Part shown: piece after piece, positions 3,280 through 29,459 of the stretch
Position numbering within the stretch: position 1 is the first letter of the stretch
Layout of the letters: every line of letters begins with the position of its first letter
Assembly: GCA_003516025.1 (NCBI GenBank)
Contig: CP023991.1
Span: 961,374-993,373 of the forward strand
Origin: Candidatus Saccharimonadota bacterium
Lineage (GTDB): Bacteria > Patescibacteriota > Saccharimonadia > Saccharimonadales > UBA4665
DNA length: 32,000 nt
Direction of reading: 5' to 3'
Notes under the pieces: model-generated
Told to the model about the DNA's origin: nothing
Seen by the model: only the letters and a program-made list of their open reading frames with translations
Databases searched by the model: none
Program-made: the position numbers and the translations under genes

Positions 3280-4008
3280 CTAATTACCCTGAGCGGCGGC
3301 GAGAACGGCCTGGGCATGGACTAATATATTACTCTGGTCGGCGGCAGTCGCCTGCGCGCCTGTTTCGGTAATGGCGCCGGTATCAGTGAACTCGACTGAG
3401 CGGGTAGCGTACTCATTGTCGCGGATCAGATCGGTTGCCTGATACTTGTACAGGCTGCCATCAGGGTAAAACGAGGCGGCGAAATCAGTTGCCATGTTGC
3501 CGTTAGCGCTAAAAGCAGTAACTGATACAGTCTCGAGATTAACGCCTTCGGATGGCATTTCTGGGTCAAAACGCTGTAACTGCAACGTGTACGACTGATC
3601 ACCCACCGTAAGGTCGACGTGTTGAATATTGCTGCCATCATCGCCGGCGGCCTCATCTACAACAAGGCTGGAGTACATTTGAAAGGTCTCGTTAATCGAG
3701 TCCTTCATGGCTACGACGGTCTCGCTGGCCTGACTACGCAGTTCAGCGGCGCTCACCTGACCTGTCGGAGCTTCGATGGTAGACGGAACGGTTGGAGCCG
3801 GACCGGCGCCCTCAGCACCGACAGATGTTGGAGCCGGAGCGGATTCACCGCCGCTTGGAGCACTACAACCAACTAAGGTTAGGGCGCCAACTCCCATAGT
3901 AATGGCCGCCGCCTTGCGCAAACGGCTTACCTTTACCTCAGTTTTAGGAGTCGACTGGTCTTCGACGACGATTTGGGTTGCTAATGATTCTGTTTGTTTT
4001 GTTTTCAT
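3280..4008 (-). CDS. Hypothetical lipoprotein
   Basis: The ORF contains a lipobox-type signal, RKAAAITMGVGALTLVG|CSAP. The ATG at 4008 gives an unusually long 31-aa n-region. An internal TTG at 3921, preceded by AAGGT, would give a canonical signal peptide MRKAAAITMGVGALTLVGC. The mature part is Ala/Pro/Thr/Ser-rich and I recognise no family. Confidence 0.6.
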   Translation of the reverse strand: MKTKQTESLATQIVVEDQSTPKTEVKVSRLRKAAAITMGVGALTLVGCSAPSGGESAPAPTSVGAEGAGPAPTVPSTIEAPTGQVSAAELRSQASETVVAMKDSINETFQMYSSLVVDEAAGDDGSNIQHVDLTVGDQSYTLQLQRFDPEMPSEGVNLETVSVTAFSANGNMATDFAASFYPDGSLYKYQATDLIRDNEYATRSVEFTDTGAITETGAQATAADQSNILVHAQAVLAAAQGN

Positions 4009-4053: not shown

Positions 4054-5634
4054 TTACTGATGATTGCCGACGCGGTTCAGGACCGTTTCAAGTTGCATAC
4101 GCACCTGGTCATACGGCGCGACCGCAGCTTCCAGCTCCTGGTACGTTTGGCGTAACGAGTCATTAGCTGGCAACAAGAACAGGTCTGGAGTCTGGGCGAT
4201 TATTTCGTTCATCTGTCCCCAGATCGGAAATACATTTTCATCAGTCGACGCGTGGATACGTCCGGCCTGCAGGAAATTCACGTAGTATTCGGCAAGCGCC
4301 GGATTCTGCTCATCAAGCCGGGCAAGCAATAAGGCATACTTCTCTCGGACGGGTATCAGGTCACGGCCAGGGGCGCCGTCCAACCCATACAGGTCACGGG
4401 CATTCGGACCGTAAAAGATAGTCTCGCCTTCGGTAGCAACATCTTCCATGACGTTCGTCATGCCGTACGGTCGGGTGCTGATAATACTGCCGGCACCATC
4501 GACTTCCAGCGTGTATGTCGTCTGAGCGGTGTCTGGGTTCTTCAGGTCATCCTGATAAATGGCACCGTTATTCAGGAAGCGCATGGCATTATCAACACCG
4601 ACGTTGTCCTCCATGACAGTCCAGCACAAATTCTGGTGCAGCAGATGGGTGGACTCATGGACGCCAATGACCTGCATGACGCTGTCGTTATAGGCTAAAT
4701 CTTCAACCCTGTCATTGGTGAACATAGAGGTGTCTATCATAATGTTTTCCTTGTCGGCTAAATGTACCTCGCCGAGCGCACCTTCATCGTGCAGGTCACC
4801 GAAGAATACGCGCCTGGCGCCTGACTCGGTAACGAATTCTTTCGGCATATAGGCAAACCCGCCAAGGATGTCCGCCATGGCACGCCGGGCCATGTTGTCG
4901 GTATTCGTCTTATCGTTGTCGATCGGTTCGATGACGTCCTCGTCCGGCACACCCTCCATGTCGGATTCCCAGTCGAAGAAGGGTTCTAAACCGATTTGCG
5001 GGAGGTAACCCTTTAGGGCACGCTGGTACTCAGACAGTGGGACGACCGGGCGTTCCGAAATGGCATCAGCATACAGGCGGTTGTAGTCATCAAGCGGGAA
5101 TTCGCCGAAGGATAGGTTGTTGCTTGCCGCCTCCAGTCGTTCTATGTTCCGCATGGTCTGATCCTGTAAAACCGACGGATTTTCGGAAGGAGCCGTTTCT
5201 TCCCCGAACAGACGCTGATACATGCTGACGACTTGGTTTGGTGTAACCTTTGTATCACAGGTATCCACCGTAAGTGCGTTACGCGCATCGACGAATACGC
5301 GGCCGATATCTGGCGGCAAATTAGCTCCGGTAGGAGCTTCGGGAAGCGTTTGGGTTACCGGCAATACATAAGGCTCGCCGACAGACATGTCCAGGTCCGC
5401 CGAACGGTCTTCCATGATATCGCGGACCGAATGAACAATCACCGTCGAAGAAACTACTACACTGGCGAGTGCTATAGCGGTACTCAACTTCCGCCCGCGG
5501 TTCGGCTGTTGGGTAGCCTCCTGCTCTACCACCTCTTCTATGGAAGCTTCATATGCTTTGGAGAAGTCGGCGTCTGGGCTCTGCGGTACTTCCGGAGCGG
5601 CAAAGGATGATAACGGGATTGGCTTCATTGACAT
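4054..5634 (-). CDS. Membrane-anchored hypothetical protein with an HExxH zinc-metallopeptidase-like motif
   Basis: 526-aa ORF with a single N-terminal TM segment (LSTAIALASVVVSSTVIVHSV) followed by a large domain carrying VIGVHESTHLLHQ (HExxH). I recognise no protease family. The gene is inserted between truB and rpsO. Confidence 0.6.
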   Translation of the reverse strand: MSMKPIPLSSFAAPEVPQSPDADFSKAYEASIEEVVEQEATQQPNRGRKLSTAIALASVVVSSTVIVHSVRDIMEDRSADLDMSVGEPYVLPVTQTLPEAPTGANLPPDIGRVFVDARNALTVDTCDTKVTPNQVVSMYQRLFGEETAPSENPSVLQDQTMRNIERLEAASNNLSFGEFPLDDYNRLYADAISERPVVPLSEYQRALKGYLPQIGLEPFFDWESDMEGVPDEDVIEPIDNDKTNTDNMARRAMADILGGFAYMPKEFVTESGARRVFFGDLHDEGALGEVHLADKENIMIDTSMFTNDRVEDLAYNDSVMQVIGVHESTHLLHQNLCWTVMEDNVGVDNAMRFLNNGAIYQDDLKNPDTAQTTYTLEVDGAGSIISTRPYGMTNVMEDVATEGETIFYGPNARDLYGLDGAPGRDLIPVREKYALLLARLDEQNPALAEYYVNFLQAGRIHASTDENVFPIWGQMNEIIAQTPDLFLLPANDSLRQTYQELEAAVAPYDQVRMQLETVLNRVGNHQ

Positions 5635-6494: not shown

Positions 6495-8174
6495 TTAGAA
6501 ACTGCCGGGAGTGAACGGCGGTGGTACTGGCGGCGGTGGCGGGCCCTGCGGCGGCAGATTATTATTATTTGGCGCTGTTACGGGCGGTTGGGCCTGGCCG
6601 AATCCGGCGGGCGGCAACGGCATAGTAAACGGTTGATCAGCCGGAGAAGCTTGCAGTGGTGCCGGTTCGTTCGTTGCTGGGTTGAGCGGCTGCGCCGATG
6701 GTGCTAACGGAGCTGCCTGGCCAGGCGTCGGCGAGGCGGGCATATACGCGCCGGCGGCTGGCGACATGGAAGGTGTCTGTAAGTAATCAGGGATGGCGGG
6801 AGCCTCTACTTCTAATGGTGCCGGCTCGGCAAGCTGAGTTGTCAGGGCAGCAGCGGCTTCTTCATCGTGGCCAAGGTCAAGGTTTACCGGTACGGCATTG
6901 AGCGCGACAAGCGGTTCGGTAGACTCGGCGTCAGTACTGACAAGAGCGCTTTCAACAGCCTTGCGGGCCGAGTCAAGATCTGTATCTAATAATTCTGGTG
7001 CGGTTGGTTCATCAGCGGCAGGTTGCTGGTTCTGGGTTATTGGTGCTGCCTCAGTTTCCTGTTCTACTTGAGGAGTCTGGGCGAGATGCGGGCTATGCAC
7101 GGCGGCTTCAATGTCAGCTAAAGTATCTTCGTCGTCTATCTCCGGTTTGCCAACAGTGCTGGCCAAGCTTGGCGTGGCAGTCGCGGTTGGTTCAGGCAGC
7201 GTTAGAACACCGTTTTCTGATATCAAGTCATTAATTTCTGGCTCGGCTGCGGCATCCAGTTTCAGGGTTGACGGCAATTCATCGTTGTCATCAGTCCCCT
7301 CCGGTTCGGTGTGCGTAATTTTTAGCGGGCCGGAATCAGCGGCCGGTGCCTCTTCGGCTTGTTCCACCGCTTCGATTGGTTCAGCGGCCGGCTTAGCGGG
7401 CGCGGCAACCTGAATCGGGTGCTCAGCTTTGGCAAGTTCATTTGATACGAGCTGCTGATTGGCACCGGCGGCCAGCAGCGTAGCGCTCATGGTCATAGTA
7501 TATGGAGTAGTCTTTTGGTTGCCGAAATGATCGGTCTGGGCAACAATACCGGTTAAGAGCGCGGTGGCGATCTGACCATCAAACAAATTGCTGCCAAGAT
7601 CCCCTGCCAGACTGGAGACCAACTCCGACACGCCACTGGCGCTAATATCCTGCCAGTTGACTGAGCCAATGTTATTATCGGGCGTGTTATTAACACTGAT
7701 AACCGTAGCATCGTGGAGTATCCGGCCATGGGCTGTGATGGCAGTATCGATATCCTGTTGTTGACGCACGCCAAGCGCCATCACGACATCGACGTTAAAG
7801 TCTCCCTGGCTATAGATCAGGTCTTTTTCGCCGATACTGGAACGATACGGCGTGATGAAAATCTTAACAACCTCGTCTTCGACTTTGTAACGCAGTTTAT
7901 CGGCCTTGGCTTTGTCGATAGCAATAATAAAATCGCGCAAGCTGTCGGTGTTCTTCTCGATAGTCTGCTCAGGCTTTAAGAATTCCAGAGTTTCGGGCAC
8001 CTGGCCACTGAAGACAGCCGTAGCATGCTTGCCCATTTTAGTAAGCAGCAGCGTCAGGCCAATACAGGCCGCCAGCTGATCCACGGACGGATTAGTACTA
8101 ACCGTCACAAGAATATTGTTGGCGGCTTTCAGTTTTTCGACGACGGTCTGTTTCTGCTGGTTTTGATCGTTCAT
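6495..8174 (-). CDS. DHH-family (NrnA-like) domain protein with degenerate catalytic motifs and a long Pro/Ala/Glu-rich disordered C-terminal tail
   Basis: 559-aa ORF. The N-terminal ~250 aa resemble the DHH fold, with LLTGIVAQTDHF matching the GIxTDTGxF motif. The position upstream of truB matches nrnA in Gram-positive and actinobacterial operons. The C-terminal ~310 aa (about 6495-7420) are low complexity and end in PPQGPPPPPVPPPFTPGSF. Confidence 0.7.
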   Translation of the reverse strand: MNDQNQQKQTVVEKLKAANNILVTVSTNPSVDQLAACIGLTLLLTKMGKHATAVFSGQVPETLEFLKPEQTIEKNTDSLRDFIIAIDKAKADKLRYKVEDEVVKIFITPYRSSIGEKDLIYSQGDFNVDVVMALGVRQQQDIDTAITAHGRILHDATVISVNNTPDNNIGSVNWQDISASGVSELVSSLAGDLGSNLFDGQIATALLTGIVAQTDHFGNQKTTPYTMTMSATLLAAGANQQLVSNELAKAEHPIQVAAPAKPAAEPIEAVEQAEEAPAADSGPLKITHTEPEGTDDNDELPSTLKLDAAAEPEINDLISENGVLTLPEPTATATPSLASTVGKPEIDDEDTLADIEAAVHSPHLAQTPQVEQETEAAPITQNQQPAADEPTAPELLDTDLDSARKAVESALVSTDAESTEPLVALNAVPVNLDLGHDEEAAAALTTQLAEPAPLEVEAPAIPDYLQTPSMSPAAGAYMPASPTPGQAAPLAPSAQPLNPATNEPAPLQASPADQPFTMPLPPAGFGQAQPPVTAPNNNNLPPQGPPPPPVPPPFTPGSF

Positions 8175-8763: not shown

Positions 8764-8794
8764 CCACCTGCTCCAGCGGGTGGTTTTTTATTTT
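8764..8794. terminator. Bidirectional rho-independent terminator between convergent rpsT and the 8788-10236 gene
   Basis: The stem pairs 8764-8771 with 8776-8783 (CCACCTGC/GCGGGTGG, including one G-U pair) around the loop TCCA. It is followed by TTTTTTATTTT on the plus strand and preceded by AAA, which becomes a short T-run on the minus strand. The stop codon of the minus-strand gene (8788-8790) lies inside the T-tract. Confidence 0.7.
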
Positions 8795-10236
8795 GTCGCG
8801 GCTTGCAAAGTCGCGTATTCCGCCCAGCGGGCAACTTCTTCTATTTGCTCGCGGAGCAACGTATTGTCCGGTGATTGTTCCTGGCATTTTTCAAGTAATT
8901 GCTGCCTGTCCCCGCCACGAGCCAGGACGCCAAGGATGGTTATGCCGCGCTTGATGTAACTCGCGGCCATAGAGGCCTTGTCGTCATATTGGGCATCGGG
9001 CTTGTTTTTCTCCGCTCTACGAAAACCACTGCTAAATTGGTCTTCGAGAAAAGCGAACACGTCAACGCCGCCATAAGACGCATCAAGAATTTCATGGAAA
9101 TCGCGGGCGGTCGGACCGTCGCCATCTCCTTCTATAAAGGCCGCGATGGCCGGTTGCAACAAATCGCTATTGATTCCGGACGTCAGAACTGCCGCCATAG
9201 CTGAACGATAATTAACGTACTTACCCTTGTCACCCCGCAGACTGGGCATAACGGTTTGATAATCGCCGTTCACCGCCGCCAGCGTCAAATGCTCAGTCAT
9301 AGCCTCATTCATAAAAGCGATGTTGAACTTGCCAAATACGGCATGATACATTTCATGGCGGAACAATTCCCGGTCAAAGTCTTCTTCGACTACAACGCGG
9401 CCCGAATCGTATATGTGGTAACCGCCCGTATTGGTCATCAACAGATCGAAGACATCGCCAACCGTAACCTTGATGTTATCGATGCGCGCGAGGGTATCCA
9501 GGGCCGCGCTAGGTAGTTCGCCACTTGCAACGTCATCGGCGATACGTGCCTTCATTTCTTCGCGGTAAGCGTCGATGCGCTCGCATACCTGAGGATCACG
9601 GTTACGCTCCATAGTGCGCTGATCATGCCACTGCAAAAAGTTCACCAGCGTTTCATTCCCGGCGTGAGCTAACCATTCAACCCGGTCCGGCGTATCTACA
9701 CGACCGCGGTCGTGTATTTTAGTAATATATTTTTCATAACTATTCTGAAACGTCACGGGAACATCCGTTTCGAGATAGGCGTTAAGTGACTGACGCTTTT
9801 CGTTCGGGACTACTTCGCCGTCCTGCTCGACATCGCGTTCCAGGGTTTCGATTTCCTGCAGTTTATCGCGGATCTGCGATAAAGCCTGCGTGCTCGCCTC
9901 TTTAAATTTGACCGACTGGTTAAAGATTTGATCAGCACTGATGCGGTCGGCAACGGTCGAATTTTGAGTTTCGGAATGGCCGCGCATAGCGAGGCCAGCG
10001 ATATAACGAAGGCCTGAGTCTTCGTGGTGCAGCCGATGAACCCCGCTTTCCTGAAATCCCATTTGCTGGTTGTAATCGGCCGAGCGGTCATACCAGTCGG
10101 CGTGCATTTCGGCGCTCAAGCGGTATTCATCCTGCTTTATAACATCTTGGCCAAAAGGCACGTAACCGGGCATATGCTCGGGCTGTGGTATATCGAGGGG
10201 CTGTGGCGGCAAGGCCAACTGTTCATTTTTTGACAT
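8788..10236 (-). CDS. Hypothetical protein with a gluzincin-like HExxH...NEAxxE metallopeptidase motif and no obvious signal peptide or TM segment
   Basis: 482-aa ORF containing FRHEMYHAVFGKFNIAFMNEAMTEH. This is an HExxH followed 13 residues later by NEAMTE, reminiscent of the thermolysin-type NEAxSD third-ligand segment. I cannot assign a family by eye. Confidence 0.6.
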   Translation of the reverse strand: MSKNEQLALPPQPLDIPQPEHMPGYVPFGQDVIKQDEYRLSAEMHADWYDRSADYNQQMGFQESGVHRLHHEDSGLRYIAGLAMRGHSETQNSTVADRISADQIFNQSVKFKEASTQALSQIRDKLQEIETLERDVEQDGEVVPNEKRQSLNAYLETDVPVTFQNSYEKYITKIHDRGRVDTPDRVEWLAHAGNETLVNFLQWHDQRTMERNRDPQVCERIDAYREEMKARIADDVASGELPSAALDTLARIDNIKVTVGDVFDLLMTNTGGYHIYDSGRVVVEEDFDRELFRHEMYHAVFGKFNIAFMNEAMTEHLTLAAVNGDYQTVMPSLRGDKGKYVNYRSAMAAVLTSGINSDLLQPAIAAFIEGDGDGPTARDFHEILDASYGGVDVFAFLEDQFSSGFRRAEKNKPDAQYDDKASMAASYIKRGITILGVLARGGDRQQLLEKCQEQSPDNTLLREQIEEVARWAEYATLQAATK

Positions 10237-11321: not shown

Positions 11322-13508
11322 ATGAGACCATCTGTAGTTATTGTTTCGAATCGATTACCGATTAGCGTTAAGAAAGTTGATGGCAAACTGGAATTCTATC
11401 CGAGCGTCGGCGGTTTGGCCACTGGCTTGTCTTCCTACGTCCGCGACAAACGCAACAAGTGGATTGGCTGGCCGGGTATTCCCAGCGAGCAAATCACCGA
11501 AAAAGAACGCCAGGAGATAACTGACGAACTACTGAAACATAACTGCTACCCTGTGTTTTTGAAACAAAAACAGCTCGACGATTACTACAATGGCTACTCA
11601 AACACTATCCTCTGGCCGCTATTCCACGACCTGCCGGCTCGGGTAGGATTGGAAGACCACGACAAGTTCTGGAAAGCCTATCAGTCCGTCAATACAGCCT
11701 TCGCCGACACGGTGTTGGCTCTCAGTGAAGCCAACAGTACGATCTGGGTCCACGATTATCAGTTGCTGACACTCCCGGCCATATTGCGCGCCGGCCGTCC
11801 TCAAGCAAAAATCGGCTTCTTTTTGCATATCCCTTTCCCCGGCCTGCAAAGTTTCGGCAAAATTCCGTCCGGTAAAATATTACTGGCCGGCATGCTCGGC
11901 TCCGACCTGGTGGGGCTGCACACTAAAACGTATGTTGATAACTTCTTAGCAGTTACAAGCGAGCTGACCAGTGATGTTGTCGGCAAAAACCAGGTTATCC
12001 TGGGCGATCGGGCGGTACGGGTCACTGATTTTCCAATGGGCATTGACTACGAACGCTTCACCCGGGCGCGCGAGCTTAAAACCGTCAAAAGCGAGCTTAA
12101 AAAACACCAGCGCAAGTATAAGGGCCTCAAAGTTATCTTAACAGTCGACCGCCTGGACCCGACAAAGGGCGTGGCCGAACGCCTGGAAGCGTACCATGAA
12201 TTCCTGCGGCAAAATCCTGGTTGGCGCTCAAAAGTCATCATGGCTATGTTAGCCGTTCCATCCCGTACCGAAATCGAAGAATATAAGCAGCTCCGTGAAA
12301 AAGTCGAAGGCCTGGTAGCCAAAATCAATAGTGAATTCGGAACCAGCAAATGGCAACCGGTCGATTACATGTACACCACCCTGCCTGTCGAGTCAGTAAC
12401 CGCCTTATACCAGGTGGCGGACATCGCATTTATCACCCCTATCCGTGATGGCATGAACCTGGTAGCCAAAGAATACATTGCCAGCAAACCGAAGAATGAC
12501 GGCGTACTTATTCTCAGTGAAACCGCGGGCGCGGCCCAGGAATTAACGCAGGCCCTGATGGTGAATCCTAAAAAACCGGGCACACTGGTCGACGCCCTGA
12601 CTAGCGCAGTTAATATGCCGAAGCGTGAACTGAAGCAACGGATCACCACCATGCACAAACAAATCGCTACTCATACCGTACAGGATTGGGCAGGCACGTT
12701 TATGAAAAACTTACAGAAGCCTATCCCGAATACCCGGCATATCACCCGTACGGTCACCCGTGACCGCGAGCAGGACATGGTTGATTCCTTCCGGGCCGCC
12801 GGCGCGCGTATGATTTTACTTGACTATGATGGCGTCCTAGCCCCGTTCGCTGACAAGCCAGCCAGTGCTAAACCGTCTGCGGCCACAATTAAGTTACTGG
12901 AAAAGTTGGCCGCTTTGCCGAATACCGACGTTATTATTATCAGTGGCCGAGGCAAAATTGATTTGGAATTGTGGCTGGGCGATTTGCCATTGACATTAAT
13001 CGCCGAACATGGCGCCATTATCCGTAAAGCCGGTAATAAAAACTGGCGGCGAGTGGTAAATGGCAACCAGGACTGGCAAAAAGATGTCGAGGTCTTGCTG
13101 GAACGCTACGCCGCCCGCACACCCGGAGCCTTCGTAGAACATAAAGACTATTCACTCGTCTGGCACTACCGTAAGGCTTCCGCCTATTACGCCCAAAAGC
13201 ACCTGGTGGCACTCAAGCGGCTACTCAAAAAGCCAGCTAAAACATATAACCTGGACGTCCGCACCGGCAACAAAATTTTAGAAATCCGGCCTGTTGGTGT
13301 CACCAAGGGCACGGCAGCTGCGGACATGGTTGAAGCCAAACCGGATTTCGTCCTGGCGATTGGCGACGACTACACCGACGAAGACATGTTTACCAGCCTA
13401 CAGTGGCCAGCTTACACCGTTAAAGTTGGCCGCGGACCCACGGCAGCCCGCTTCCGTATTCCACGGATTGACGGCGTACAAAACTTGTTGAAAAAATTTG
13501 TCCGCTAA
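11322..13508 (+). CDS. Bifunctional trehalose-6-phosphate synthase / trehalose-6-phosphate phosphatase (OtsA-OtsB fusion)
   Basis: 728-aa ORF. The N-terminal ~470 aa form a GT20 domain (VVIVSNRLPISV..., GGLATGL, WIGWPG, LWPLFH, TPIRDGMNLVAKEY). The C-terminal ~240 aa form a HAD phosphatase (LLDYDGVLAPF, ISGRG, GDDYTDEDMF). Confidence 0.9.
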   Translation: MRPSVVIVSNRLPISVKKVDGKLEFYPSVGGLATGLSSYVRDKRNKWIGWPGIPSEQITEKERQEITDELLKHNCYPVFLKQKQLDDYYNGYSNTILWPLFHDLPARVGLEDHDKFWKAYQSVNTAFADTVLALSEANSTIWVHDYQLLTLPAILRAGRPQAKIGFFLHIPFPGLQSFGKIPSGKILLAGMLGSDLVGLHTKTYVDNFLAVTSELTSDVVGKNQVILGDRAVRVTDFPMGIDYERFTRARELKTVKSELKKHQRKYKGLKVILTVDRLDPTKGVAERLEAYHEFLRQNPGWRSKVIMAMLAVPSRTEIEEYKQLREKVEGLVAKINSEFGTSKWQPVDYMYTTLPVESVTALYQVADIAFITPIRDGMNLVAKEYIASKPKNDGVLILSETAGAAQELTQALMVNPKKPGTLVDALTSAVNMPKRELKQRITTMHKQIATHTVQDWAGTFMKNLQKPIPNTRHITRTVTRDREQDMVDSFRAAGARMILLDYDGVLAPFADKPASAKPSAATIKLLEKLAALPNTDVIIISGRGKIDLELWLGDLPLTLIAEHGAIIRKAGNKNWRRVVNGNQDWQKDVEVLLERYAARTPGAFVEHKDYSLVWHYRKASAYYAQKHLVALKRLLKKPAKTYNLDVRTGNKILEIRPVGVTKGTAAADMVEAKPDFVLAIGDDYTDEDMFTSLQWPAYTVKVGRGPTAARFRIPRIDGVQNLLKKFVR

Positions 13509-23633: not shown

Positions 23634-23676
23634 CTGATTGTATCAAGTAACCCGTTCATGGTTAAATATAAGCAAT

Positions 23677-24300
23677 ATGCCGCCAAACCAATATCAATTC
23701 CCTGCTCCAGCACCGCAACAGCCGGAACACAATCCGTATGGCTTCTTCATGGAGCCCGACAAACCGCAGCGTTCTCCCATTGGCGGCTCACCCCTCAAAA
23801 AATATGGTCTCATCGTTGGAGTAATTGTTGCCGTAGTGTTATTGGTTATTATCATTATTGCCATGGCTACCGGCGGAAAAGACTCTAGCGCAGGTTTACT
23901 GACCATCGCCCAAGAACAACAGGAGCTCATTCGAGTATCGGCGGACGGCGCTAAAAACAGCAAGAGCACTCAATTGTTGAATTTTTCCGCCACAGCCCAG
24001 GTTAGCCTGGCCTCTTCCCAGAAAGACCTTACAGCATTTATGGCCAAGCACGGCGTTAAGACCGACGACAAGGTTCTGGCTCTCGGCAAAGATGCTCAGA
24101 CCGACCAGGCGCTCAGCGGCGCGCTGGCTTCCAATACATATGACACGACATTCAATTCAGTCATTCAAGCCGAATTGGCTACCTATGTCAAAAATCTCGA
24201 CGCGGCCATACAGACCGCGACGACCAAAACAGAACAGAACCTGCTCAAAAAGCAGAGCGCTAACGCCCAGTTATTAAGCAAGATGCTCACCGCCTTATAA
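23677..24300 (+). CDS. Hypothetical single-pass membrane protein (Pro-rich N-terminus, TM segment, helical Ala/Gln/Thr-rich ectodomain)
   Basis: The track ORF starts at 23638. The ATG at 23677 (MPPNQYQFPAPAPQQ...) is more plausible. The TM segment is YGLIVGVIVAVVLLVIIIIAMA. I recognise no family. Confidence 0.5.
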   Translation: MPPNQYQFPAPAPQQPEHNPYGFFMEPDKPQRSPIGGSPLKKYGLIVGVIVAVVLLVIIIIAMATGGKDSSAGLLTIAQEQQELIRVSADGAKNSKSTQLLNFSATAQVSLASSQKDLTAFMAKHGVKTDDKVLALGKDAQTDQALSGALASNTYDTTFNSVIQAELATYVKNLDAAIQTATTKTEQNLLKKQSANAQLLSKMLTAL

Positions 24301-24705: not shown

Positions 24706-27700
24706 TTACTTCAAGTCGTAACGCCAATTTAAAATGATATCTTGACTCAAATCATTTTCATCAGATAAGGTGAACATGTTATCTGATATCGTACCAAGGT
24801 TCCATATAAGTGCACCATCTAACTCATTGGCCATAATGGAATTGCGAGCATTTTGGAAGAACACCCGCCTATCGGATTCAGTACCCACGTTAAGGTCGTA
24901 GCCAATTTCTCCAACATAAAATGGTTTGTTATATTTATCCGCCAACTCACGCCACGTATGGAGAGCTGTCCCTAGCGCGCCATAATTAACATTACTTTCA
25001 GCAGCACTGCCAAGGTATTTGCTATATACGTGGCCGCTGCATAACGTAATTACTTCCAACGTACATATATCTTCTATGGAACTGCCATGACGCTCATTAT
25101 ACGGCTGCCCAGTATAGTTACTAGTAAATCCTTCCGTTCCTGGGGATATCAAGTGCTTCTGGTCTATACTCGATACATACTGTCCAATCTCTTCAGTCCA
25201 TGCCGTAAGCTTTACGGAATCCTGCTGTCCTTCAATTCTAGGCTCGTTAATTAATTCCCATGCGGCAATAGTGCCTTGGTCTTTCAACTTTAACCCGTTA
25301 TAGGCAGACCTATGTTCCAATATATGGCTGATATGTTCTTTATATAAATCCTTAGATGCTGTTGTAGTGAAAAAGGTTTGCGCGTTACCATTGGTACTAA
25401 AGTTATCGGGGCCTCCATAATCGTTATAGGTATTACCGAAGACGCATACAATTTTTACGCCGCTTAGTTCAGCTCTCTCAATGAGGTAATCCATCTTTGC
25501 TAGCTCAGCATCAGTTAACTTTCCACCTTTGTCGAAGCACCATATACGCATCGTATTAAGGTTAGCCTTTTCGAGTACCCTCAAGCGTTGGTCAATAACC
25601 TCAACAGGTTGAGAGAGCACATCGTATGAATTCATGCCACTCATGACAAACGGCTTACCGCGCAAGGACAGGTGTTGGCCAGACCGCTGGATAAAATGTG
25701 GGTTTAAATCTTTCTTTTTATAAACATACAGGTAGCCTGCCCGATACACATTAACGAATTTCTGATCTAATAAATCTTTGCGCTTAAGGTTTTTCCATAT
25801 AGCGTCGGTGTCTGATTTTTGCAAGACAATCCACTCGGCATGCTTAGCCGGGTCGTCAAAACTTTCATTCCAATACGGTTTGTTGCCTGAACCAATAAAA
25901 CTTTGCATAGGAACGCCAGATTCTACCGGCCCAATAGGACGCCTATAGTCATCCATAAGCACTAGACCCTTATCATAGTGGTCACGCATATACTCTTCGA
26001 CCTCAGGAGAGTCGGGGCCCTTAGAAACCGCTTGTGATGAAAGTCCCCTCGTGCCGTCTACATATGTGATAACCGTGTCTGTCTTTATAAACATAAAAGC
26101 TTGAATACCTATAATCATAATTATTATGGGTATCAATTTTTTGAACCTTGCCCCAAGGAAAGCAGCAAATATAGCGATGAATAGCAGAATTTGTAAACCG
26201 TACCGCGTGTTAGAAATAGTGTACTTTGCGTCTTCTGCGGCGAATGTAGGTAGTATAAGACTTGCTTGCCCAATATACAGAGAAAGAACATAAAAAAACA
26301 CGGGGGTTAACATTAAAATAATAATTAAAAGGTACCGCATTTGTTTTTGAGATACAACTTTATACGTAAAGAAGCCCAATCCACACAATGCAAGCAGCAC
26401 AACTGGTAATCCAACGACCAGCCTAATATCCTCTAGGAAGTAAACTATTGATTTTGTAAAATTATGATAAGTAGGTAAATATCCGTTGTTTAAAAAGAAT
26501 AGCTGCTGTTCCTTGGAACCGTAGACACTTTCCGAAAAATATAAAAAAGAATTAAATATAACTTTATTCCATATAAGCCAAAGCAAAATCCCCATAAATG
26601 CAATGAAAGAATATAAGAAAATCGTACCCTCAACAATTTTGTAGGATACCTTTTTGAGGACAAGGAATAATGCAATACAAGCCACCTCGATACACACAAG
26701 AGCCCACCCATCATAACGCGACAGACTGGCCAGAGCGGTAAACACAGAGGCAAGTACTAAGTGCAAAAGATTCTGGGTTTTAAGCCACTTGGTAAAAAAG
26801 TATACCGATGAGGTAAACATGCTCAAAAGCAATATTTCTGTCATAGGTGTGGTTGCCAAATATACAGAATTAGGATTTAACAAAACTACCAAAGGAGCTA
26901 TGTAGCTTGCCGTAAAGTTTTTGGTCACTTCGTATGCTAGACGATACAACGTAACACACAGAAAAACGAATGCGGCAACGGATACTATACTGCCGCCAAT
27001 TCCGCTACGCCAAAGCGGATCAAACGCGACAAAGGGCGCCATTAAAATATGGGGGAGCGGAAGCCATATCCCCCCTAGTTGGGCTGCACCTGCAGTAAGA
27101 CTATCAGTAACTCGTTTAGCGATGTTAAGGTGAGCTTCGGCGTCACCATAAGCCAAAATAACATTATTATGATACGCCCATGCAGTTGCAACCACAGCAA
27201 CAGCCAGTGAAAGCAAAAACACCACTCTTATATTTAATTTCATACGAGCGCGTTCAGACCGGAGAAGCACCCAACGCAATGTATAAAATTCCTTAACGGC
27301 TCTCTTTATGACATCAGCGTTTCCACCTGTCGACTCGCCTGCCATTCTTGGCTTGTGAGTGACGGGTACTTGCTTTATGGGCATCTTGGCAACTTTGGCG
27401 CGATGCAGAATCTCCGTGTTAATCATCGCACTCTCAGATAGCAACTCCAGCTCATGTAAGCGCGTCCGCTTCATAAGCTTAAAAGCACAGTCAACGTCTT
27501 TTACTTTAATACCAAAGAATATACGTGCGGCTATATTGAATATACCAGCATTTAATTTACGCCTAAATGAGTCCTTGCGGTCGCTTCTTTTTCCTATTAT
27601 AAAATCGAACGAATCAGAGAATGCCACTAACCTGCTAATTTCATGTAATTCAAACTGACCATCAGCATCCGTAAAGAAAACCCAATCATTTTTTGCAGAA

Positions 27701-27984
27701 TCTAATCCTTTGCGCACAGTTGGCCCGTAGCCAATATTCACTTCATTGTTAATTAACCGCACATGGGGATTATGCAACGCGTATTGTTCAACAAGCTCAC
27801 CGGTGGCGTCTTTGCTACCATCGTTAACGACAATGATTTCATATTGCTCAGTTACAGTCTGAGCACTCTTAACTGCGTCTTCAAGAACGGCAACTATGTT
27901 TTCCGACTCATTATATGCCGGCAGGACTATAGACAGTGAGCCGAGTGTTTTAGGTCGCTGGTAAGTTAGTTGATCGGTGGCCAT
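24706..27984 (-). CDS. Triple-domain fusion: GT2 polyprenol-phosphate-sugar-synthase-like domain + multi-pass GT-C (PMT/ArnT-like) membrane domain + GH5 (beta-mannanase-like) glycoside hydrolase domain
   Basis: The track ORF extends to 28134, but its first 50 codons overlap the upstream gene. The ATG at 27984 (MATDQLTYQ...) overlaps the upstream stop as TAATG and is preceded by GGGGAG. The GT2 domain spans about 27250-27945 (LSIVLPAYNESENI, VVNDGSKDAT, FTDADGQ, DCAFKL). Roughly 12-13 hydrophobic helices span about 26090-27243, with YGDAEAH in the first loop. The GH5 domain spans about 24706-25675 (NTMRIWCFD, AWELINEPR with Glu at 25243-25245, HLISPGTEGF, FYVGEIGYD with Glu at 24907-24909). 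Confidence 0.8.
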   Translation of the reverse strand: MATDQLTYQRPKTLGSLSIVLPAYNESENIVAVLEDAVKSAQTVTEQYEIIVVNDGSKDATGELVEQYALHNPHVRLINNEVNIGYGPTVRKGLDSAKNDWVFFTDADGQFELHEISRLVAFSDSFDFIIGKRSDRKDSFRRKLNAGIFNIAARIFFGIKVKDVDCAFKLMKRTRLHELELLSESAMINTEILHRAKVAKMPIKQVPVTHKPRMAGESTGGNADVIKRAVKEFYTLRWVLLRSERARMKLNIRVVFLLSLAVAVVATAWAYHNNVILAYGDAEAHLNIAKRVTDSLTAGAAQLGGIWLPLPHILMAPFVAFDPLWRSGIGGSIVSVAAFVFLCVTLYRLAYEVTKNFTASYIAPLVVLLNPNSVYLATTPMTEILLLSMFTSSVYFFTKWLKTQNLLHLVLASVFTALASLSRYDGWALVCIEVACIALFLVLKKVSYKIVEGTIFLYSFIAFMGILLWLIWNKVIFNSFLYFSESVYGSKEQQLFFLNNGYLPTYHNFTKSIVYFLEDIRLVVGLPVVLLALCGLGFFTYKVVSQKQMRYLLIIILMLTPVFFYVLSLYIGQASLILPTFAAEDAKYTISNTRYGLQILLFIAIFAAFLGARFKKLIPIIIMIIGIQAFMFIKTDTVITYVDGTRGLSSQAVSKGPDSPEVEEYMRDHYDKGLVLMDDYRRPIGPVESGVPMQSFIGSGNKPYWNESFDDPAKHAEWIVLQKSDTDAIWKNLKRKDLLDQKFVNVYRAGYLYVYKKKDLNPHFIQRSGQHLSLRGKPFVMSGMNSYDVLSQPVEVIDQRLRVLEKANLNTMRIWCFDKGGKLTDAELAKMDYLIERAELSGVKIVCVFGNTYNDYGGPDNFSTNGNAQTFFTTTASKDLYKEHISHILEHRSAYNGLKLKDQGTIAAWELINEPRIEGQQDSVKLTAWTEEIGQYVSSIDQKHLISPGTEGFTSNYTGQPYNERHGSSIEDICTLEVITLCSGHVYSKYLGSAAESNVNYGALGTALHTWRELADKYNKPFYVGEIGYDLNVGTESDRRVFFQNARNSIMANELDGALIWNLGTISDNMFTLSDENDLSQDIILNWRYDLK

Positions 27985-29363
27985 TACTCCCCTGCCTTTT
28001 GTAAATGTAAACCATGTGTAGTTTTCTCCCAGTAATGTGGTTTGACTATGAGCTGATAAAACGCGTACATAGCAGCAATTGACATCATGAGCCAATAAAA
28101 CGGCACAATGACTACGAATTTTATTAAATTCCACTGTCCTCTTTGGGCGGTTCCCAGCATAAAATAATAAAGATACAGTAAATTACCTATAACTAATGTG
28201 ATAAGGGCAATATAGAATACTGGCGCCGGATATACACTCTCAATAGCTTCCCCCACCAAAGGCTTAAGTATAAAATAAGAGATGGTCAAAAGCCACATTA
28301 AGGGATTCGCTAGAATTGAAAGTACTTTGCCACCAACAACAAGATAAAATGTGAAGATATGCAGGTCGAATGGATGCTTCTGAATTTGCCGCGGCTGGCG
28401 GGTGTGTACCAGAAAAGTTTGCATATAGCCTTTAAGCCATCGAGACCGCTGCCGTAGCCAGTTACCGAATTTACTGTTGGCTTCCTCGAGCGTATACGAA
28501 TCAAGAATACCAGTCCTAAATCCTTGCTTATATAGTCTTATGCCGAGGTCACAGTCCTCGGTAACATTGTAAGGGTCCCAACCAAAAAGACCTTTCAGTA
28601 CATATGTCTTAAAATGGTTAGAAGTACCACCTAAAGGAACTGGTCCTTTTATATTCTGTAGTCCAACCAAAGTTAAATTAAACCATAGGGAGTATTCTGC
28701 AGTGAACATACGAGTTAAAAGGTTTTGATTAGCATTATAAAAATTTAATTTTGCTTGTACGCATGCAATATCACCAGGTGCGTTTTCAAACGCTATGACA
28801 GCTTTTTTTATTTGGTCTGGCTCGGGAATATCTTCTGCATCATATATAACACAATATTCCGATTCAGTGAGGCTGAGCCCGTAGTTACACGCCTTAGGTT
28901 TGGTTTTTGGCAAGCTATGTGGAACAACGACTATTTCAAAATGTTTCTCGAGATTTAGAGACTTTGCCGCACCGATAGTTTCCACGTCATCCTCTTCTAG
29001 TAAAAGCATGATGCGTAATTTCTCTTTAGGGTAATTTAGGTTGTTCATGGCTTCGGTGAACTGCCTCAATACTGATATCTCTTTATATAACGGACAGAAG
29101 ACTGTATATGTCGGCCACTCTCTTTCTATGGTAATTTCGCTTTTTGAAATTTTAAATTCAGAGCTGTTGTGAAGGCTAGAACCTACTAAGAACAGATTAA
29201 AGAGCATATCTGCGAAATAAAGAATACTTATGAGAGCAACGGCTATGGTTATGGTAAGAATAGGTCCGAGCGTAAGGCTGGACGCAATAAACAGTACGAT
29301 AAAAAATGGCAATATGAGTGCCTGCCAAAGCGTAAATGTCTTAAATGCTGAACTGTTTTTCAT
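27984..29363 (-). CDS. Processive family-2 glycosyltransferase (membrane-embedded synthase with D,D,D,Q(R)xRW motifs)
   Basis: 459-aa ORF with two N-terminal TM helices, a cytoplasmic GT-A domain (TVFCPLYKE..., VIYDAEDIPEPDQ, FTAEY, GGTSNHF) and RQRSRW at 28437-28454, followed by about four C-terminal TM helices. This architecture is typical of cellulose, chitin, hyaluronan or (gluco)mannan synthase-like enzymes, or of processive glycolipid synthases. Confidence 0.8.
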   Translation of the reverse strand: MKNSSAFKTFTLWQALILPFFIVLFIASSLTLGPILTITIAVALISILYFADMLFNLFLVGSSLHNSSEFKISKSEITIEREWPTYTVFCPLYKEISVLRQFTEAMNNLNYPKEKLRIMLLLEEDDVETIGAAKSLNLEKHFEIVVVPHSLPKTKPKACNYGLSLTESEYCVIYDAEDIPEPDQIKKAVIAFENAPGDIACVQAKLNFYNANQNLLTRMFTAEYSLWFNLTLVGLQNIKGPVPLGGTSNHFKTYVLKGLFGWDPYNVTEDCDLGIRLYKQGFRTGILDSYTLEEANSKFGNWLRQRSRWLKGYMQTFLVHTRQPRQIQKHPFDLHIFTFYLVVGGKVLSILANPLMWLLTISYFILKPLVGEAIESVYPAPVFYIALITLVIGNLLYLYYFMLGTAQRGQWNLIKFVVIVPFYWLMMSIAAMYAFYQLIVKPHYWEKTTHGLHLQKAGE

Positions 29364-29459
29364 TATTTACAAACTAGTTAATACAACAATATCATTAAGA
29401 AATACTTTTGTCACATTTTCGTACTTACAGCGTACGCTATTGCATAGTCTTTTGATGCG

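What the first reader, a model, noticed from the sequence alone, without database searches (positions are those of the whole stretch)
24706..27984. Single polypeptide fusing GT2 (polyprenol-P-sugar synthase-like), a GT-C membrane transferase and a GH5 mannanase-like hydrolase
Three enzyme modules that normally sit in separate proteins lie in one roughly 1092-aa ORF. The first is a Dpm1/GtrB/ArnC-like GT2 domain (PAYNES, NDGSKD, DADGQ). The second is a run of about 12-13 TM helices with a YGDAEAH first-loop motif typical of GT-C enzymes, which use polyprenol-P-sugars on the outer face. The third is a GH5 domain with both catalytic glutamates in canonical context (WELINEPR, VGEIGYD) and mannanase-like blocks (NTMRIWCF, HLISPGTEGF). 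The logic would be a built-in relay: make polyprenol-P-mannose (or another sugar) in the cytoplasm, use it outside via the GT-C domain, then cut, trim or transglycosylate the product with the GH5 domain. Fusions of GT2 with GT-C are known in principle, but I do not know of a described GT2+GT-C+GH5 triple fusion. The GH5 domain can act on an exported polymer only if the number of TM passes between GT2 and GH5 is odd. My by-eye count of 12-13 cannot settle that.
Basis: partly seen in the sequence, partly recalled or inferred. Interest (0 to 1): 0.8.

Follow-up and report, generated by a model that had tools for sequence, protein, structure and literature searches.

The report
Glycan-synthase cassette with tethered mannanase
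The 1092-residue three-enzyme protein is real, but it is one half of a rare, horizontally acquired two-gene unit whose other half is a cellulose-synthase-like enzyme. Together they most likely build, decorate and trim a surface sugar polymer that nobody has yet characterised.

Summary
One intact ORF (minus strand, 24706-27984, 1092 aa) encodes three modules: an ArnC/GtrB/Dpm1-type GT2, an 11-helix GT-C transferase with a conserved outer-face domain, and a GH5 domain closest to GH5_7 beta-mannanases with all catalytic residues conserved. Charge bias and GT-C homology place the GT2 inside the cell and the GH5 outside.

The upstream gene (27984-29363), whose stop overlaps the fusion's start, is a BcsA-like processive GT2 synthase. 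It sits immediately upstream in all 11 distinct full-length loci examined, in Saccharibacteria, Actinomycetota and Dormibacterota. In other lineages it is fused directly to the GT-C module. Only these two genes are a low-GC3 island (0.38-0.41 versus 0.53-0.66), so the pair was acquired as a cassette.

Best reading (inferred, confidence 0.45): the synthase exports a beta-mannan-type chain, the GT-C module fed by its own GT2 glycosylates it outside, and the tethered GH5 trims or transglycosylates it, like BcsZ or CcsZ.

The full triple fusion forms one 50%-identity cluster among 1.84 billion representatives. GT-C+GH5 fusions without the GT2 are more diverse. I found no published description. Verdict: a new variant of known kinds.

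The parts
27984..29363 (-). Gene 1 of the cassette: a 459-aa BcsA-like processive GT2 synthase. Hydrophobic segments flank the catalytic domain at the N- and C-termini.
   Evidence: Pfam Glyco_trans_2_3 E=8e-21 and Glyco_tranf_2_3 E=2e-19. The alignment to BcsA (5ej1/4p00/4hg6) matches the DxD (YDAED), TED (VTEDCD), QxxRW (QRSRW) and KAxN motifs. A homologue of 56-82% identity lies immediately upstream of the fusion in all full-length loci examined.
24706..27984 (-). Gene 2: the 1092-aa GT2 + GT-C + GH5 fusion ORF, including the stop codon.
   Evidence: The identical protein was read on 4 contigs. AlphaFold full-length model: pLDDT 87.2, pTM 0.76.
27982..27986 (-). TAATG junction. The synthase stop codon TAA overlaps the fusion's ATG by one base, and an AGGGGAG Shine-Dalgarno-like run lies just upstream. 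This implies translational coupling.
   Evidence: Sequence read. Homologous loci have overlapping or abutting start/stop junctions.
27250..27984 (-). Module 1, aa 1-245: a cytoplasmic GT-A fold GT2 of the polyprenol-phosphate glycosyltransferase type (ArnC/GtrB/Dpm1-like), ending in an amphipathic helix at aa 223-240.
   Evidence: PF00535 E=4e-26. Profile hits to ArnC (9hwj) 2e-25, GtrB (5eke) 1e-19 and DPMS (5mlz) 1e-16. Foldseek hits to ArnC, DPMS and GtrB. D106 and D108 (DADGQ) are at least 90% conserved and D163 is invariant.
26077..27249 (-). Module 2a, aa 246-636: the GT-C membrane domain with 11 predicted TM helices. TM1 is 249-271. The first outer loop carries the invariant D281 within YGDAEAH. 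Further conserved outer-face motifs are TPMTE (379-383), RYDGW (423-427) and the loop at 482-504.
   Evidence: Foldseek search with the aa 240-770 model returns ALG12, STT3, DPY19, ArnT (TM-score 0.56/0.55), PglB, Pmt4, ALG9, AftA/B and Emb. PMT_2 is matched at E<=0.001 by 18 of 34 family members. Topology comes from alignment-averaged charge bias.
25690..26076 (-). Module 2b, aa 637-765: a very highly conserved alpha/beta soluble domain after the last TM helix (motifs GLSSQxVSKGPDSP and GLVLMDDYRRPIG). It is predicted to lie on the outer face, like the C-terminal domains of ArnT and PglB.
   Evidence: Invariant columns 643-730. Secondary structure. Placement from the charge bias of loop 613-616 and GT-C homology.
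24709..25689 (-). Module 3, aa 766-1092: a GH5 (beta/alpha)8 domain closest to GH5_7 beta-mannanases. The acid/base is E914 (NEP motif) and the nucleophile is E1026. R813, H985 and W1061 are also conserved.
   Evidence: PF00150 33.3 bits against a cut-off of 23.5. PDB 8gf3, 4qp0 and 3pz9 at E=1e-34 to 1e-30. Profile E=2e-53. Foldseek 8gf3 (BlMan5_7) E=1e-20 with target TM-score 0.81. Catalytic residues are invariant in 31 homologues and at least 90% conserved in 18 diverse GT-C+GH5 proteins.
24706..29363 (.). Compositional island: exactly these two genes have low GC.
   Evidence: GC3 is 0.41 (fusion) and 0.38 (synthase), against 0.53-0.66 for all 19 other genes measured in the window. The flanking genes differ in every homologous locus.
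29386..29414 (-). Weak sigma-70-like site (GTGACA-17-TATTGT with an extended TG) in the 96-nt gap upstream of the synthase. It is a possible cassette promoter, with low confidence.
   Evidence: The total number of such sites in the region is not clearly above the shuffle expectation.

Best explanation
The ORF is the second gene of a horizontally acquired two-gene cassette for making an extracellular beta-linked glycan, most likely of the beta-1,4-mannan or glucomannan type.

Gene 1 is a BcsA-like processive GT2 synthase. It would polymerise the backbone from a nucleotide sugar in the cytoplasm and export it through its own membrane channel.

Gene 2 would supply three activities in one chain:
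- The cytoplasmic ArnC/GtrB/Dpm1-type GT2 module loads a sugar onto polyprenol phosphate.
- After the lipid-linked sugar is flipped (no flippase is identified in this cassette), the 11-TM GT-C module uses it on the outer face to glycosylate the emerging polymer, or possibly its acceptor. Its candidate catalytic residue is the invariant D281.
- The GH5 mannanase-like domain, tethered outside, cuts, trims, releases or transglycosylates the chain. This is the role BcsZ and CcsZ play for bacterial cellulose synthases, and the role membrane-anchored GH5_7 mannanases play for plant CSLA glucomannan synthases.

Shown here: the ORF, the domain identities, the conservation of catalytic residues, the gene pairing and gene fusions, and the compositional island.

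Inferred: the topology, the identity of the polymer, the sugar carried by the lipid donor, and the GT-C acceptor.
For: Domains.

Intact catalytic residues in all three modules across phyla.

Synthase hallmark motifs aligned to BcsA.

Start/stop overlap between the two genes.

Synthase immediately upstream in all 11 distinct full-length loci, from three phyla, with unrelated flanking genes.

Synthase also upstream of the GT-C+GH5 proteins that lack the GT2 (L088, L089).

Rosetta-stone fusions:
- P0054 is a second GT2 domain + a synthase orthologue (54% identity) + GT-C.
- P0092 and P0074 are synthase (47% and 44% identity) + GT-C.

Topology: cytoplasmic loops are rich in K/R (5.7, 3.2, 3.3 and 2.8 per loop, with almost no acidic residues), while outer loops are acidic or neutral. 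This gives 11 TM helices with the N-terminus in and the C-terminus out. It agrees with ArnT and PglB, whose C-terminal soluble domains are periplasmic (plus family knowledge).

GH5_7 enzymes all act on beta-mannans, and some transglycosylate (PMC3526467).

Precedents for a hydrolase cognate to a synthase: CcsZ, a GH5 (PMC7710045), and Arabidopsis MAN2/MAN5, TM-anchored endo-beta-1,4-mannanases needed for CSLA-dependent glucomannan synthesis (PMC13181414).

Acquisition as a unit.
Against: - No biochemical data exist for any member of this family.
- The synthase product is unknown. Its only solved relative by sequence is BcsA, at E=1e-7.
- The GH5 domain is only about 26% identical to GH5_7 structures.
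- No flippase (GtrA-type) lies in or next to the cassette in this window.
- I know of no described case in which a GT-C enzyme decorates a synthase-made polymer, so this step has only indirect analogies: Gtr, YfhO and GacL decorating other polymers, and BcsG modifying nascent cellulose.
- Many related loci lack the GT2 module, so the lipid-sugar donor must sometimes come from elsewhere.
- The position of one TM helix (either 307-327 or 357-377) is ambiguous, although parity is fixed by the flanking charged loops.
Confidence: 0.45

Rival explanations
1. Lipid-primed polymer plus ligase. The Dpm1-like GT2 makes a polyprenol-P-sugar primer. The processive synthase extends and exports it. The GT-C module then transfers the whole chain from the lipid to a final acceptor (wall, protein or lipid), as AglJ and AglB do in archaeal N-glycosylation or as oligosaccharyltransferases and WaaL-type ligases do. 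The GH5 sets chain length or releases the product.
For: - STT3/OST and PglB are among the best fold matches of the membrane domain.
- The GT2 scores against AglJ and the haloarchaeal dolichyl-P-hexose transferase.
- The synthase is fused to GT-C, and a GT2 is fused to synthase and GT-C, in single chains.
- The outer-face domain is extremely conserved, with an invariant LMDDYRR motif at a position resembling the WWDYG motif of OSTs. The resemblance is recalled from memory and was not tested.
Against: - BcsA-type synthases, as characterised, extend at the non-reducing end and push a free reducing end through their channel. A lipid on the reducing end is topologically awkward. This is family knowledge and was not tested here.
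- ArnT and ALG12, which use monosaccharide donors, match the fold as well as or better than OSTs.
- Many loci have no GT2 next to the synthase and GT-C.
Confidence: 0.2
2. The GT2 makes polyprenol-P-mannose, the GT-C module itself uses it to build or mannosylate an outer-face product, and the GH5 trims that same product. The neighbouring synthase plays no part.
For: - All three modules are in one chain with intact catalytic residues.
- The PMT_2 family link suggests mannose.
- A retaining GT-C (AftB) is known and is among the fold matches, so a beta-linked GT-C product is not strictly impossible.
Against: - The usual stereochemistry (inverting GT2, then inverting GT-C) gives alpha-linkages, which a GH5 cannot cut. 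This is family knowledge.
- The synthase is present in every full-length locus, is translationally coupled, and is fused to GT-C elsewhere.
- GT-C+GH5 proteins without the GT2 are more diverse than the triple fusion.
- The GT2 resembles ArnC and GtrB more than Dpm synthase.
Confidence: 0.1
3. A surface-tethered degradative enzyme. The GH5 is displayed on the cell to digest external or host-derived beta-mannan for nutrition or host attack (the organism is probably an epibiotic Saccharibacterium). The GT2 and GT-C parts serve an unrelated envelope-glycosylation function or act merely as a membrane anchor.
For: - Free GH5_7 enzymes are typically degradative.
- L089 carries an additional stand-alone GH5 next to the fusion.
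- Saccharibacteria have reduced genomes and depend on hosts (general knowledge).
Against: - The same architecture and cassette occur in free-living Actinomycetota with large genomes, such as Catenuloplanes at 8.9 Mb and Mycolicibacterium at 6.0 Mb.
- The strict pairing and the fusions with biosynthetic modules argue for one pathway.
- The GT-C catalytic residues are invariant, so it is not a passive anchor.
Confidence: 0.08
4. Artefact: a frameshift, read-through or chimeric assembly joined separate genes.
For: None found. The only related observation is that one homologue (P0046) has a truncated, frameshifted GH5 end.
Against: - The identical ORF was read on 4 contigs from different data sets.
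- About 45 full-length homologues occur in three phyla, with conservation running continuously through the domain junctions.
- The AlphaFold full-length model is confident.
Confidence: 0.01

Closest known systems
Synthase-dependent exopolysaccharide systems with a cognate hydrolase: BcsA/BcsZ (GH8) in Gram-negative bacteria and CcsA/CcsZ (GH5) in Clostridia (PMC7710045)
   Same: A BcsA-like processive GT2 synthase with DxD, TED and QxxRW motifs is encoded next to an extracytoplasmic endo-type glycoside hydrolase, whose specificity is expected to match the polymer.
   Different: Here the hydrolase is covalently tethered to a GT-C transferase rather than being a free or anchored protein. It is mannanase-like, not cellulase-like. 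No BcsB, BcsC or PilZ parts were found, and the whole system is two genes.
Three-component polyprenol-phosphate glycosylation systems: GtrA/GtrB/GtrC, ArnC/ArnT, CsbB/GtcA/YfhO, GacI/GacL, Ppm1/Pmt
   Same: A Dpm1/GtrB/ArnC-type GT2 makes a lipid-linked monosaccharide, and a GT-C enzyme uses it on the outer face to modify an envelope polymer, lipid or protein.
   Different: The GT2 and GT-C are fused in one chain. There is no flippase in the cassette. The GT-C is coupled to, and in some lineages fused with, a processive synthase, and it carries a GH5 domain. The membrane domain is a divergent PMT_2-like family with no curated NCBIfam model.
Plant CSLA glucomannan synthases with membrane-anchored GH5_7 mannanases AtMAN2/AtMAN5 (PMC13181414)
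   Same: A GT2 processive beta-mannan-type synthase works with a membrane-tethered mannanase (the tomato and soybean GH5 endo-beta-mannanases are among the closest solved relatives), and the mannanase's catalytic activity is needed for normal polymer synthesis.
   Different: The plant system is eukaryotic and located in the Golgi, with separate proteins and a single TM anchor. No GT-C is involved. The bacterial polymer has not been identified.
Fungal alpha-1,3-glucan synthase Ags1 (recalled from the literature, not checked here)
   Same: One membrane polypeptide combines an intracellular glycosyltransferase with an extracellular glycoside-hydrolase or transglycosylase domain on opposite sides of a multi-span membrane domain.
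   Different: The families are unrelated (GT5 and GH13). It handles an alpha-glucan. The membrane domain is an exporter rather than a GT-C transferase.
GH5 subfamily 7 beta-mannanases (BlMan5_7 8gf3, RmMan5A 4qp0, TpMan 3pz9, LeMAN4a 1rh9)
   Same: The fold matches (target TM-score 0.77-0.81). The NEP acid/base, the nucleophile Glu and the conserved Arg, His and Trp are all present.
   Different: Identity is only about 21-26%. The domain is fused to the C-terminus of a GT-C enzyme rather than being secreted or carrying a CBM. Formal subfamily placement was not done.

Membership tests
GT2, polyprenol-phosphate glycosyltransferase type (Dpm1/GtrB/ArnC) | GT-A domain matching Pfam PF00535 above its gathering score | tested here: met
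   92.3 bits against a cut-off of 23.3, aa 18-174.
GT2, polyprenol-phosphate glycosyltransferase type (Dpm1/GtrB/ArnC) | DxD metal/nucleotide-sugar motif and a conserved catalytic Asp | tested here: met
   DADGQ at aa 106-110. D106 and D108 are at least 90% conserved and D163 is invariant in 31 homologues.
GT2, polyprenol-phosphate glycosyltransferase type (Dpm1/GtrB/ArnC) | The closest solved relatives are lipid-phosphate glycosyltransferases rather than other GT2 enzymes | tested here: met
   ArnC 2e-25, GtrB 1e-19 and DPMS 1e-16 are the best non-GH5 profile hits. Foldseek gives the same order. The best NCBIfam hit is ArnC, far below its equivalog cut-off.
GT2, polyprenol-phosphate glycosyltransferase type (Dpm1/GtrB/ArnC) | Transfer of a sugar to polyprenol phosphate, and the identity of that sugar | not testable with these tools
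   This needs membrane assays with labelled UDP- or GDP-sugars.
GT-C fold glycosyltransferases | A multi-span membrane fold superimposable on solved GT-C enzymes | tested here: met
   The aa 240-770 model has pLDDT 91.6. All of the top 43 Foldseek PDB hits are GT-C enzymes or GT-C-fold membrane proteins (three are PIGU of GPI transamidase). Examples: ALG12 4e-7 and ArnT TM-score 0.56/0.55.
GT-C fold glycosyltransferases | A conserved acidic residue in the first extracytoplasmic loop after TM1 | tested here: met
   D281 in YGDAEAH is invariant in alignments A1, A2 and A3. E283 is invariant only among the closest homologues.
GT-C fold glycosyltransferases | N-terminus in the cytoplasm and the C-terminal soluble domain on the outer face | tested here: inconclusive
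   The alignment-averaged positive-inside rule gives 11 TM helices with the N-terminus in and the C-terminus out. This is consistent with ArnT and PglB. No dedicated topology predictor or experiment was available, and one helix position is ambiguous.
Pfam PMT_2 (PF13231) | Score above the family gathering threshold | tested here: not met
   This sequence scores 20.6-21.6 bits against a cut-off of 26.1. 18 of 34 aligned relatives match PMT_2 at E<=0.001 (best E=9e-11). The L014 protein, 44% identical over the GT-C module, scores 36.2 bits. It is therefore filed as a divergent relative in the GT-C clan, not as a PMT_2 member.
GH5 (subfamily 7-like beta-mannanase) | Pfam PF00150 above its gathering score | tested here: met
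   33.3 bits against 23.5 when aa 763-1092 is scanned alone. It was not reported in the full-length scan.
GH5 (subfamily 7-like beta-mannanase) | Clan GH-A catalytic pair (Asn-Glu acid/base on strand 4, Glu nucleophile on strand 7) plus conserved Arg, His and Trp | tested here: met
   N913-E914 aligns to the NEP motif of 8gf3, and E1026 aligns to the nucleophile of 3pz9. R813, N913, E914, H985, E1026 and W1061 are invariant in 31 homologues.
GH5 (subfamily 7-like beta-mannanase) | Formal CAZy subfamily assignment to GH5_7 | not tested
   No dbCAN or CAZy models were available. Of the 16 solved sequences at E<1e-4, twelve are endo-beta-mannanases (the closest is named BlMan5_7; 1rh9 is the GH5_7 representative structure) and four are exo-beta-mannosidases. 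Identity is only about 21-26%.
GH5 (subfamily 7-like beta-mannanase) | Hydrolysis or transglycosylation of beta-1,4-mannan | not testable with these tools
   This needs the recombinant domain assayed on mannan, glucomannan, galactomannan and CMC.
Synthase-dependent EPS system (BcsA-type) | A processive GT2 with D, D, D, QxxRW and TED motifs and flanking TM segments | tested here: met
   The alignment to BcsA shows YDAED, VTEDCD, QRSRW and KPKACN. Pfam Glyco_trans_2_3 matches. Hydrophobic N- and C-terminal segments are visible in the translation. The channel itself was not modelled.
Synthase-dependent EPS system (BcsA-type) | c-di-GMP-binding PilZ domain, or BcsB/BcsC-type partners | tested here: not met
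   The 459-aa synthase has no PilZ or other extra Pfam domain. Its neighbours are housekeeping genes. It works like a synthase system but is not a Bcs operon.
Gtr-type three-component glycosylation system | A dedicated GtrA-family flippase encoded with the GT2 and GT-C | tested here: not met
   There is no GtrA-like gene in or beside the cassette in this window. A GtrA gene lies upstream in the Mycolicibacterium locus L003, and GtrA is fused in more distant relatives such as P0076 and P0083.

The most novel reading that the evidence does not exclude
A self-sufficient, mobile two-gene machine makes a branched beta-mannan-type exopolysaccharide. It would be the first bacterial synthase-dependent beta-mannan pathway, and the first case of a GT-C transferase and a glycoside hydrolase acting in one chain on a polymer as it leaves a BcsA-like synthase. 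The cassette would have been exchanged horizontally between Saccharibacteria (epibionts) and Actinomycetota (their usual hosts), and Dormibacterota.
Probability: 0.3. Interest if true: 0.75.

Novelty: new variant of a known kind. Interest (0 to 1): 0.6.

Why it matters
If the model holds, the cassette is a minimal, portable route to an extracellular beta-mannan-like polymer, made of only two genes. It would add a new way of modifying synthase-made polysaccharides: a GT-C enzyme using a lipid-linked sugar on the outer face. It would also give a bacterial counterpart to the recently found need for membrane-bound mannanases in plant glucomannan synthesis.

Culturable carriers make it directly testable. 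These include Catenuloplanes atrovinosus, Amnibacterium endophyticum, Mycolicibacterium mengxianglii, Symbioplanes lichenis and Actinoplanes.

For Saccharibacteria, an acquired surface-glycan cassette could bear on attachment to hosts. If the model is wrong, the finding is still a well-documented, rare multi-enzyme architecture that current annotation labels only as "glycosyltransferase".

Tried and rejected
- PDB profile searches with alignments A1 and A2 found no solved GT-C by sequence, only GH5 and GT2 hits. The GT-C assignment therefore rests on fold comparison.
- NCBIfam has no model for the GT-C or GH5 part.
- Six literature searches found no description of this architecture or of a bacterial synthase with a GT-C and GH5 partner.
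- A plasmid collection search found no instance of the fusion, only isolated GH5 or GT-C relatives below 31% identity.
The Saccharibacteria origin is therefore inferred from the closest homologue (71% identity, Candidatus Saccharibacteria) and the 1.0-Mb contig.
- Promoter and terminator scans were not above the shuffle expectation.
- I considered and rejected the following:
  - A longer ORF starting at the GTG at 28134. It overlaps the synthase gene, and homologues start at the position equivalent to the ATG.
  - A frameshift artefact.
  - A cytoplasmic GH5.

Full report
**1. The observation**

The window carries an open reading frame on the minus strand from 27984 down to 24706, stop included. 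The mechanical ORF list extends it to a GTG at 28134, but that extra stretch lies inside the upstream gene.

The ORF is not an assembly or frameshift artefact:
- The identical protein was read on 4 contigs (2 places shown, from a JGI metagenome and a Logan run) and is on record on a 1.0-Mb NCBI contig.
- About 45 full-length homologues of 1074-1113 aa and 43-71% identity exist.
- In an alignment of 31 of them, conservation runs straight through the domain junctions, with mean column identity of 64%.

**2. The three modules**

*GT2.* Pfam PF00535 matches aa 18-174 at E=4e-26. With a family profile, the best solved relatives outside the GH5 part are all lipid-phosphate glycosyltransferases: ArnC (2e-25), GtrB (1e-19) and archaeal Dpm synthase (1e-16). 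Foldseek on the AlphaFold model gives the same answer. The DADGQ motif is at least 90% conserved and D163 is invariant. The donor sugar is not determined. ArnC and GtrB score above Dpm synthase, so mannose is not specifically favoured.

*GH5.* PF00150 was not reported when the whole protein was scanned. It passes its threshold when the C-terminus is scanned alone, at 33.3 bits against 23.5. The 16 solved sequences that match at E<1e-4 are twelve endo-beta-mannanases (the closest named BlMan5_7) and four exo-beta-mannosidases, at E=1e-34 with the single sequence and 2e-53 with the profile. The model superimposes on BlMan5_7 with target TM-score 0.81. The acid/base (N913-E914 in WELINEPR) and the nucleophile (E1026) align to those of the solved enzymes. 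Together with R813, H985 and W1061 they are invariant in 31 homologues. According to the GH5 subfamily paper, all activities reported for GH5_7 enzymes concern beta-mannans, and some enzymes transglycosylate (PMC3526467). Identity to the solved enzymes is only about 21-26%, and I could not run a formal subfamily assignment. "GH5_7-like" is therefore the honest label.

*GT-C.* Pfam PMT_2 scores only 20.6-21.6 bits, below its cut-off of 26.1. Sequence profiles find no solved GT-C. An AlphaFold model of aa 240-770, built on 34 diverse relatives, is confident (pLDDT 91.6, pTM 0.91). All of its top 43 Foldseek hits in the PDB are GT-C enzymes or GT-C-fold membrane proteins: ALG12, STT3, DPY19, ArnT (TM-scores 0.56/0.55), PglB, Pmt4, ALG9, AftA, AftB, Emb, AftD, GPI mannosyltransferase I, and the PIGU subunit of GPI transamidase. 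Eighteen of 34 relatives match PMT_2 at E<=0.001. D281 in the first loop (YGDAEAH) is invariant in all three alignments, as are R423-Y424-D425 and several residues in the outer loops. I file it in the GT-C fold superfamily as a divergent PMT_2-like family. It is not a PMT_2 member in the Pfam sense.

**3. Topology**

I had no dedicated predictor and no model coordinates. I combined the helices of the AlphaFold models with hydropathy and K/R counts averaged over 31 homologues.

Four short segments are strongly positive with almost no acidic residues:
- the segment before TM1: 5.7 K/R
- 444-451: 3.2 K/R
- 542-550: 3.3 K/R
- 613-616: 2.8 K/R

The long conserved loops (272-306, 475-521, 572-594) are acidic or neutral.

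This gives 11 TM helices, not 12-13: 249-271, 329-352, one broken helix at about 357-377 (or alternatively 307-327), 383-401, 404-422, 426-443, 452-474, 522-541, 551-571, 595-612 and 617-635. The ambiguity does not affect parity. From the clearly cytoplasmic loop 613-616, a single helix leads to the C-terminal part.

The result is GT2 inside, with D281, the conserved domain at aa 637-765 and the GH5 outside. This matches ArnT and PglB, whose N-termini are cytoplasmic and whose C-terminal soluble domains are periplasmic (family knowledge; fold match). Two invariant cysteines in the GH5 domain (C974, C982) are weakly consistent with an outer-face location. The topology is inferred, not shown.

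**4.

The upstream gene (27984-29363, 459 aa) ends in a TAA that overlaps the fusion's ATG by one base, with a Shine-Dalgarno-like AGGGGAG just before it. It is a processive GT2 synthase. It matches Pfam Glyco_trans_2_3. Its alignment to BcsA shows the DxD, TED, QxxRW and KAxN motifs.

Evidence that the two genes form one unit:
- In all 11 distinct full-length loci I could examine, a 56-82% identical synthase lies immediately upstream, while the flanking genes are unrelated. These loci come from Candidatus Saccharibacteria, three Actinoplanes/Symbioplanes, Catenuloplanes, Mycolicibacterium mengxianglii, Nocardioides, Amnibacterium, two Actinomycetota MAGs and the dormibacterial Nephthysia.
- Across phyla the synthase is better conserved than the GT2 or GH5 modules.
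- In other lineages the same synthase is fused to the same GT-C module in one chain. P0054 is a second GT2 domain + synthase (54% identity) + GT-C. P0092 and P0074 are synthase + GT-C.
- In still others the synthase sits next to a stand-alone GT-C (L014, L022, L023).
- GT-C+GH5 proteins that lack the GT2 are genuine full-length proteins. In the two cases where the upstream gene is identifiable, it is the synthase (L088, L089).

**5. How rare it is**

Among 1.84 billion representatives (50% identity clusters of about 15 billion proteins), one cluster (P0027) covers the full GT2+GT-C+GH5 architecture. By contrast, at least 13 clusters are GT-C+GH5, at least 11 are GT2+GT-C, and many are synthase+GT-C.

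Among 185,579 species genomes, nine carried the full fusion under the patterns used. About 400 loci carry the GT-C module, many of them in Bryobacteraceae and Patescibacteria.

The GT-C module is therefore the hub. GH5 and the synthase are frequent partners. The GT2 was added in one lineage.

**6. Acquisition**

Only the two cassette genes have low GC3 (0.41 and 0.38). All 19 other genes measured in the window have 0.53-0.66. The surroundings are housekeeping genes: dnaG, rpoD, polA, fpg, holA, truB, pnp and an RNase T-like gene. The closest homologue, in another Saccharibacterium, sits in a different neighbourhood. The pair was acquired as a unit.

**7. Mechanism**

GH5 enzymes cut beta-linkages. 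A GT2 that loads polyprenol phosphate inverts, and nearly all GT-C enzymes invert again, so the GT-C product would normally be alpha-linked (family knowledge; AftB is a retaining exception). The GH5 substrate is therefore unlikely to be the GT-C product. It is much more likely to be the beta-linked chain made by the coupled synthase.

I therefore favour the following model (confidence 0.45):
- The synthase makes and exports a beta-mannan-type chain.
- The GT-C module, fed by its own GT2, glycosylates it on the outer face.
- The tethered GH5 trims, releases or transglycosylates it.

Precedents exist for each pairing:
- BcsZ and the GH5 enzyme CcsZ with cellulose synthases (PMC7710045).
- Membrane-anchored endo-beta-1,4-mannanases (plant GH5 mannanases are among the closest solved relatives) required for CSLA-dependent glucomannan synthesis in Arabidopsis (PMC13181414).
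- Gtr/YfhO/GacL-type decoration of envelope polymers (family knowledge).

The main rival (confidence 0.2) is that the GT2 makes a lipid primer, the synthase extends it, and the GT-C module ligates the chain to an acceptor, as in AglJ/AglB.

**8. Verdict**

The thing is a new variant built from known kinds of parts. It is uncharacterised and rare, and it is testable in culturable actinomycetes. I found no paper describing it. Public annotation calls it only "glycosyltransferase" or "hypothetical protein".

Noticed in passing
window 24706-29363: A sharp compositional island. GC3 is 0.38-0.41 for exactly the two cassette genes, against 0.53-0.66 for all 19 other genes measured. This points to recent horizontal acquisition from a lower-GC donor.
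   Followed up: yes
window 11322-13508 (+): A single 728-aa protein fuses trehalose-6-phosphate synthase (Glyco_transf_20) with trehalose-phosphatase (OtsA-OtsB fusion).
   Followed up: no
window 3280-4008, 4054-5634, 6495-8174, 8788-10236 (all -): Four sizeable ORFs (242, 526, 559 and 482 aa) among housekeeping genes have no Pfam match at E<=1e-5.
   Followed up: no
window 23638-24300 (+): A 220-aa ORF between dnaG and the YjbR gene has a Pro/Gln-rich N-terminus and one hydrophobic helix. It has no significant Pfam match (only DUF4148 at E=0.04).
   Followed up: no
L087 681-8619: A GT-C+GH5 gene without the GT2 lies directly next to type IV secretion or conjugation-like genes (TrbC/T4SS pilin, TrbL, TraC-like, TraG-like ATPase, M23 peptidase). 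It may sit on a mobile element. The gene upstream of it is a second, distant GT-C paralogue rather than the synthase.
   Followed up: partly
L089 3755-4846: A second, stand-alone GH5 (363 aa, only 24% identical to the fused GH5) lies immediately downstream of a synthase + GT-C-GH5 pair.
   Followed up: no
L014 7521-11846: In a Saccharibacteria locus with synthase + stand-alone GT-C, the next genes encode a 1016-aa glucose/sorbosone-dehydrogenase-PKD-PA14 protein and a CarboxypepD_reg-domain protein. The CarboxypepD_reg domain is also found fused to this GT-C family in other Patescibacteria (P0053-P0071).
   Followed up: no
L003 5064-6382; L011 3573-4259: In Mycolicibacterium mengxianglii, a GtrA-family gene and an extra Dpm1-like GT2 precede the cassette. 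One Actinomycetota MAG (L011) also has an extra GT2 upstream. In these two loci the fused GT2 is unusually divergent (34% identity against about 50% elsewhere).
   Followed up: partly
window 25930-25968 (aa 673-685): The motif GLVLMDDYRRPIG in the outer-face domain is largely invariant. Its position shortly after the last TM helix recalls the WWDYG acceptor-binding motif of oligosaccharyltransferases. This is a resemblance from memory and was not tested.
   Followed up: no
P0046 (homologue, 896 aa): One full-length-type homologue ends in a frameshifted, truncated GH5 domain. Either it is a sequencing error or a lineage is losing the hydrolase.
   Followed up: no
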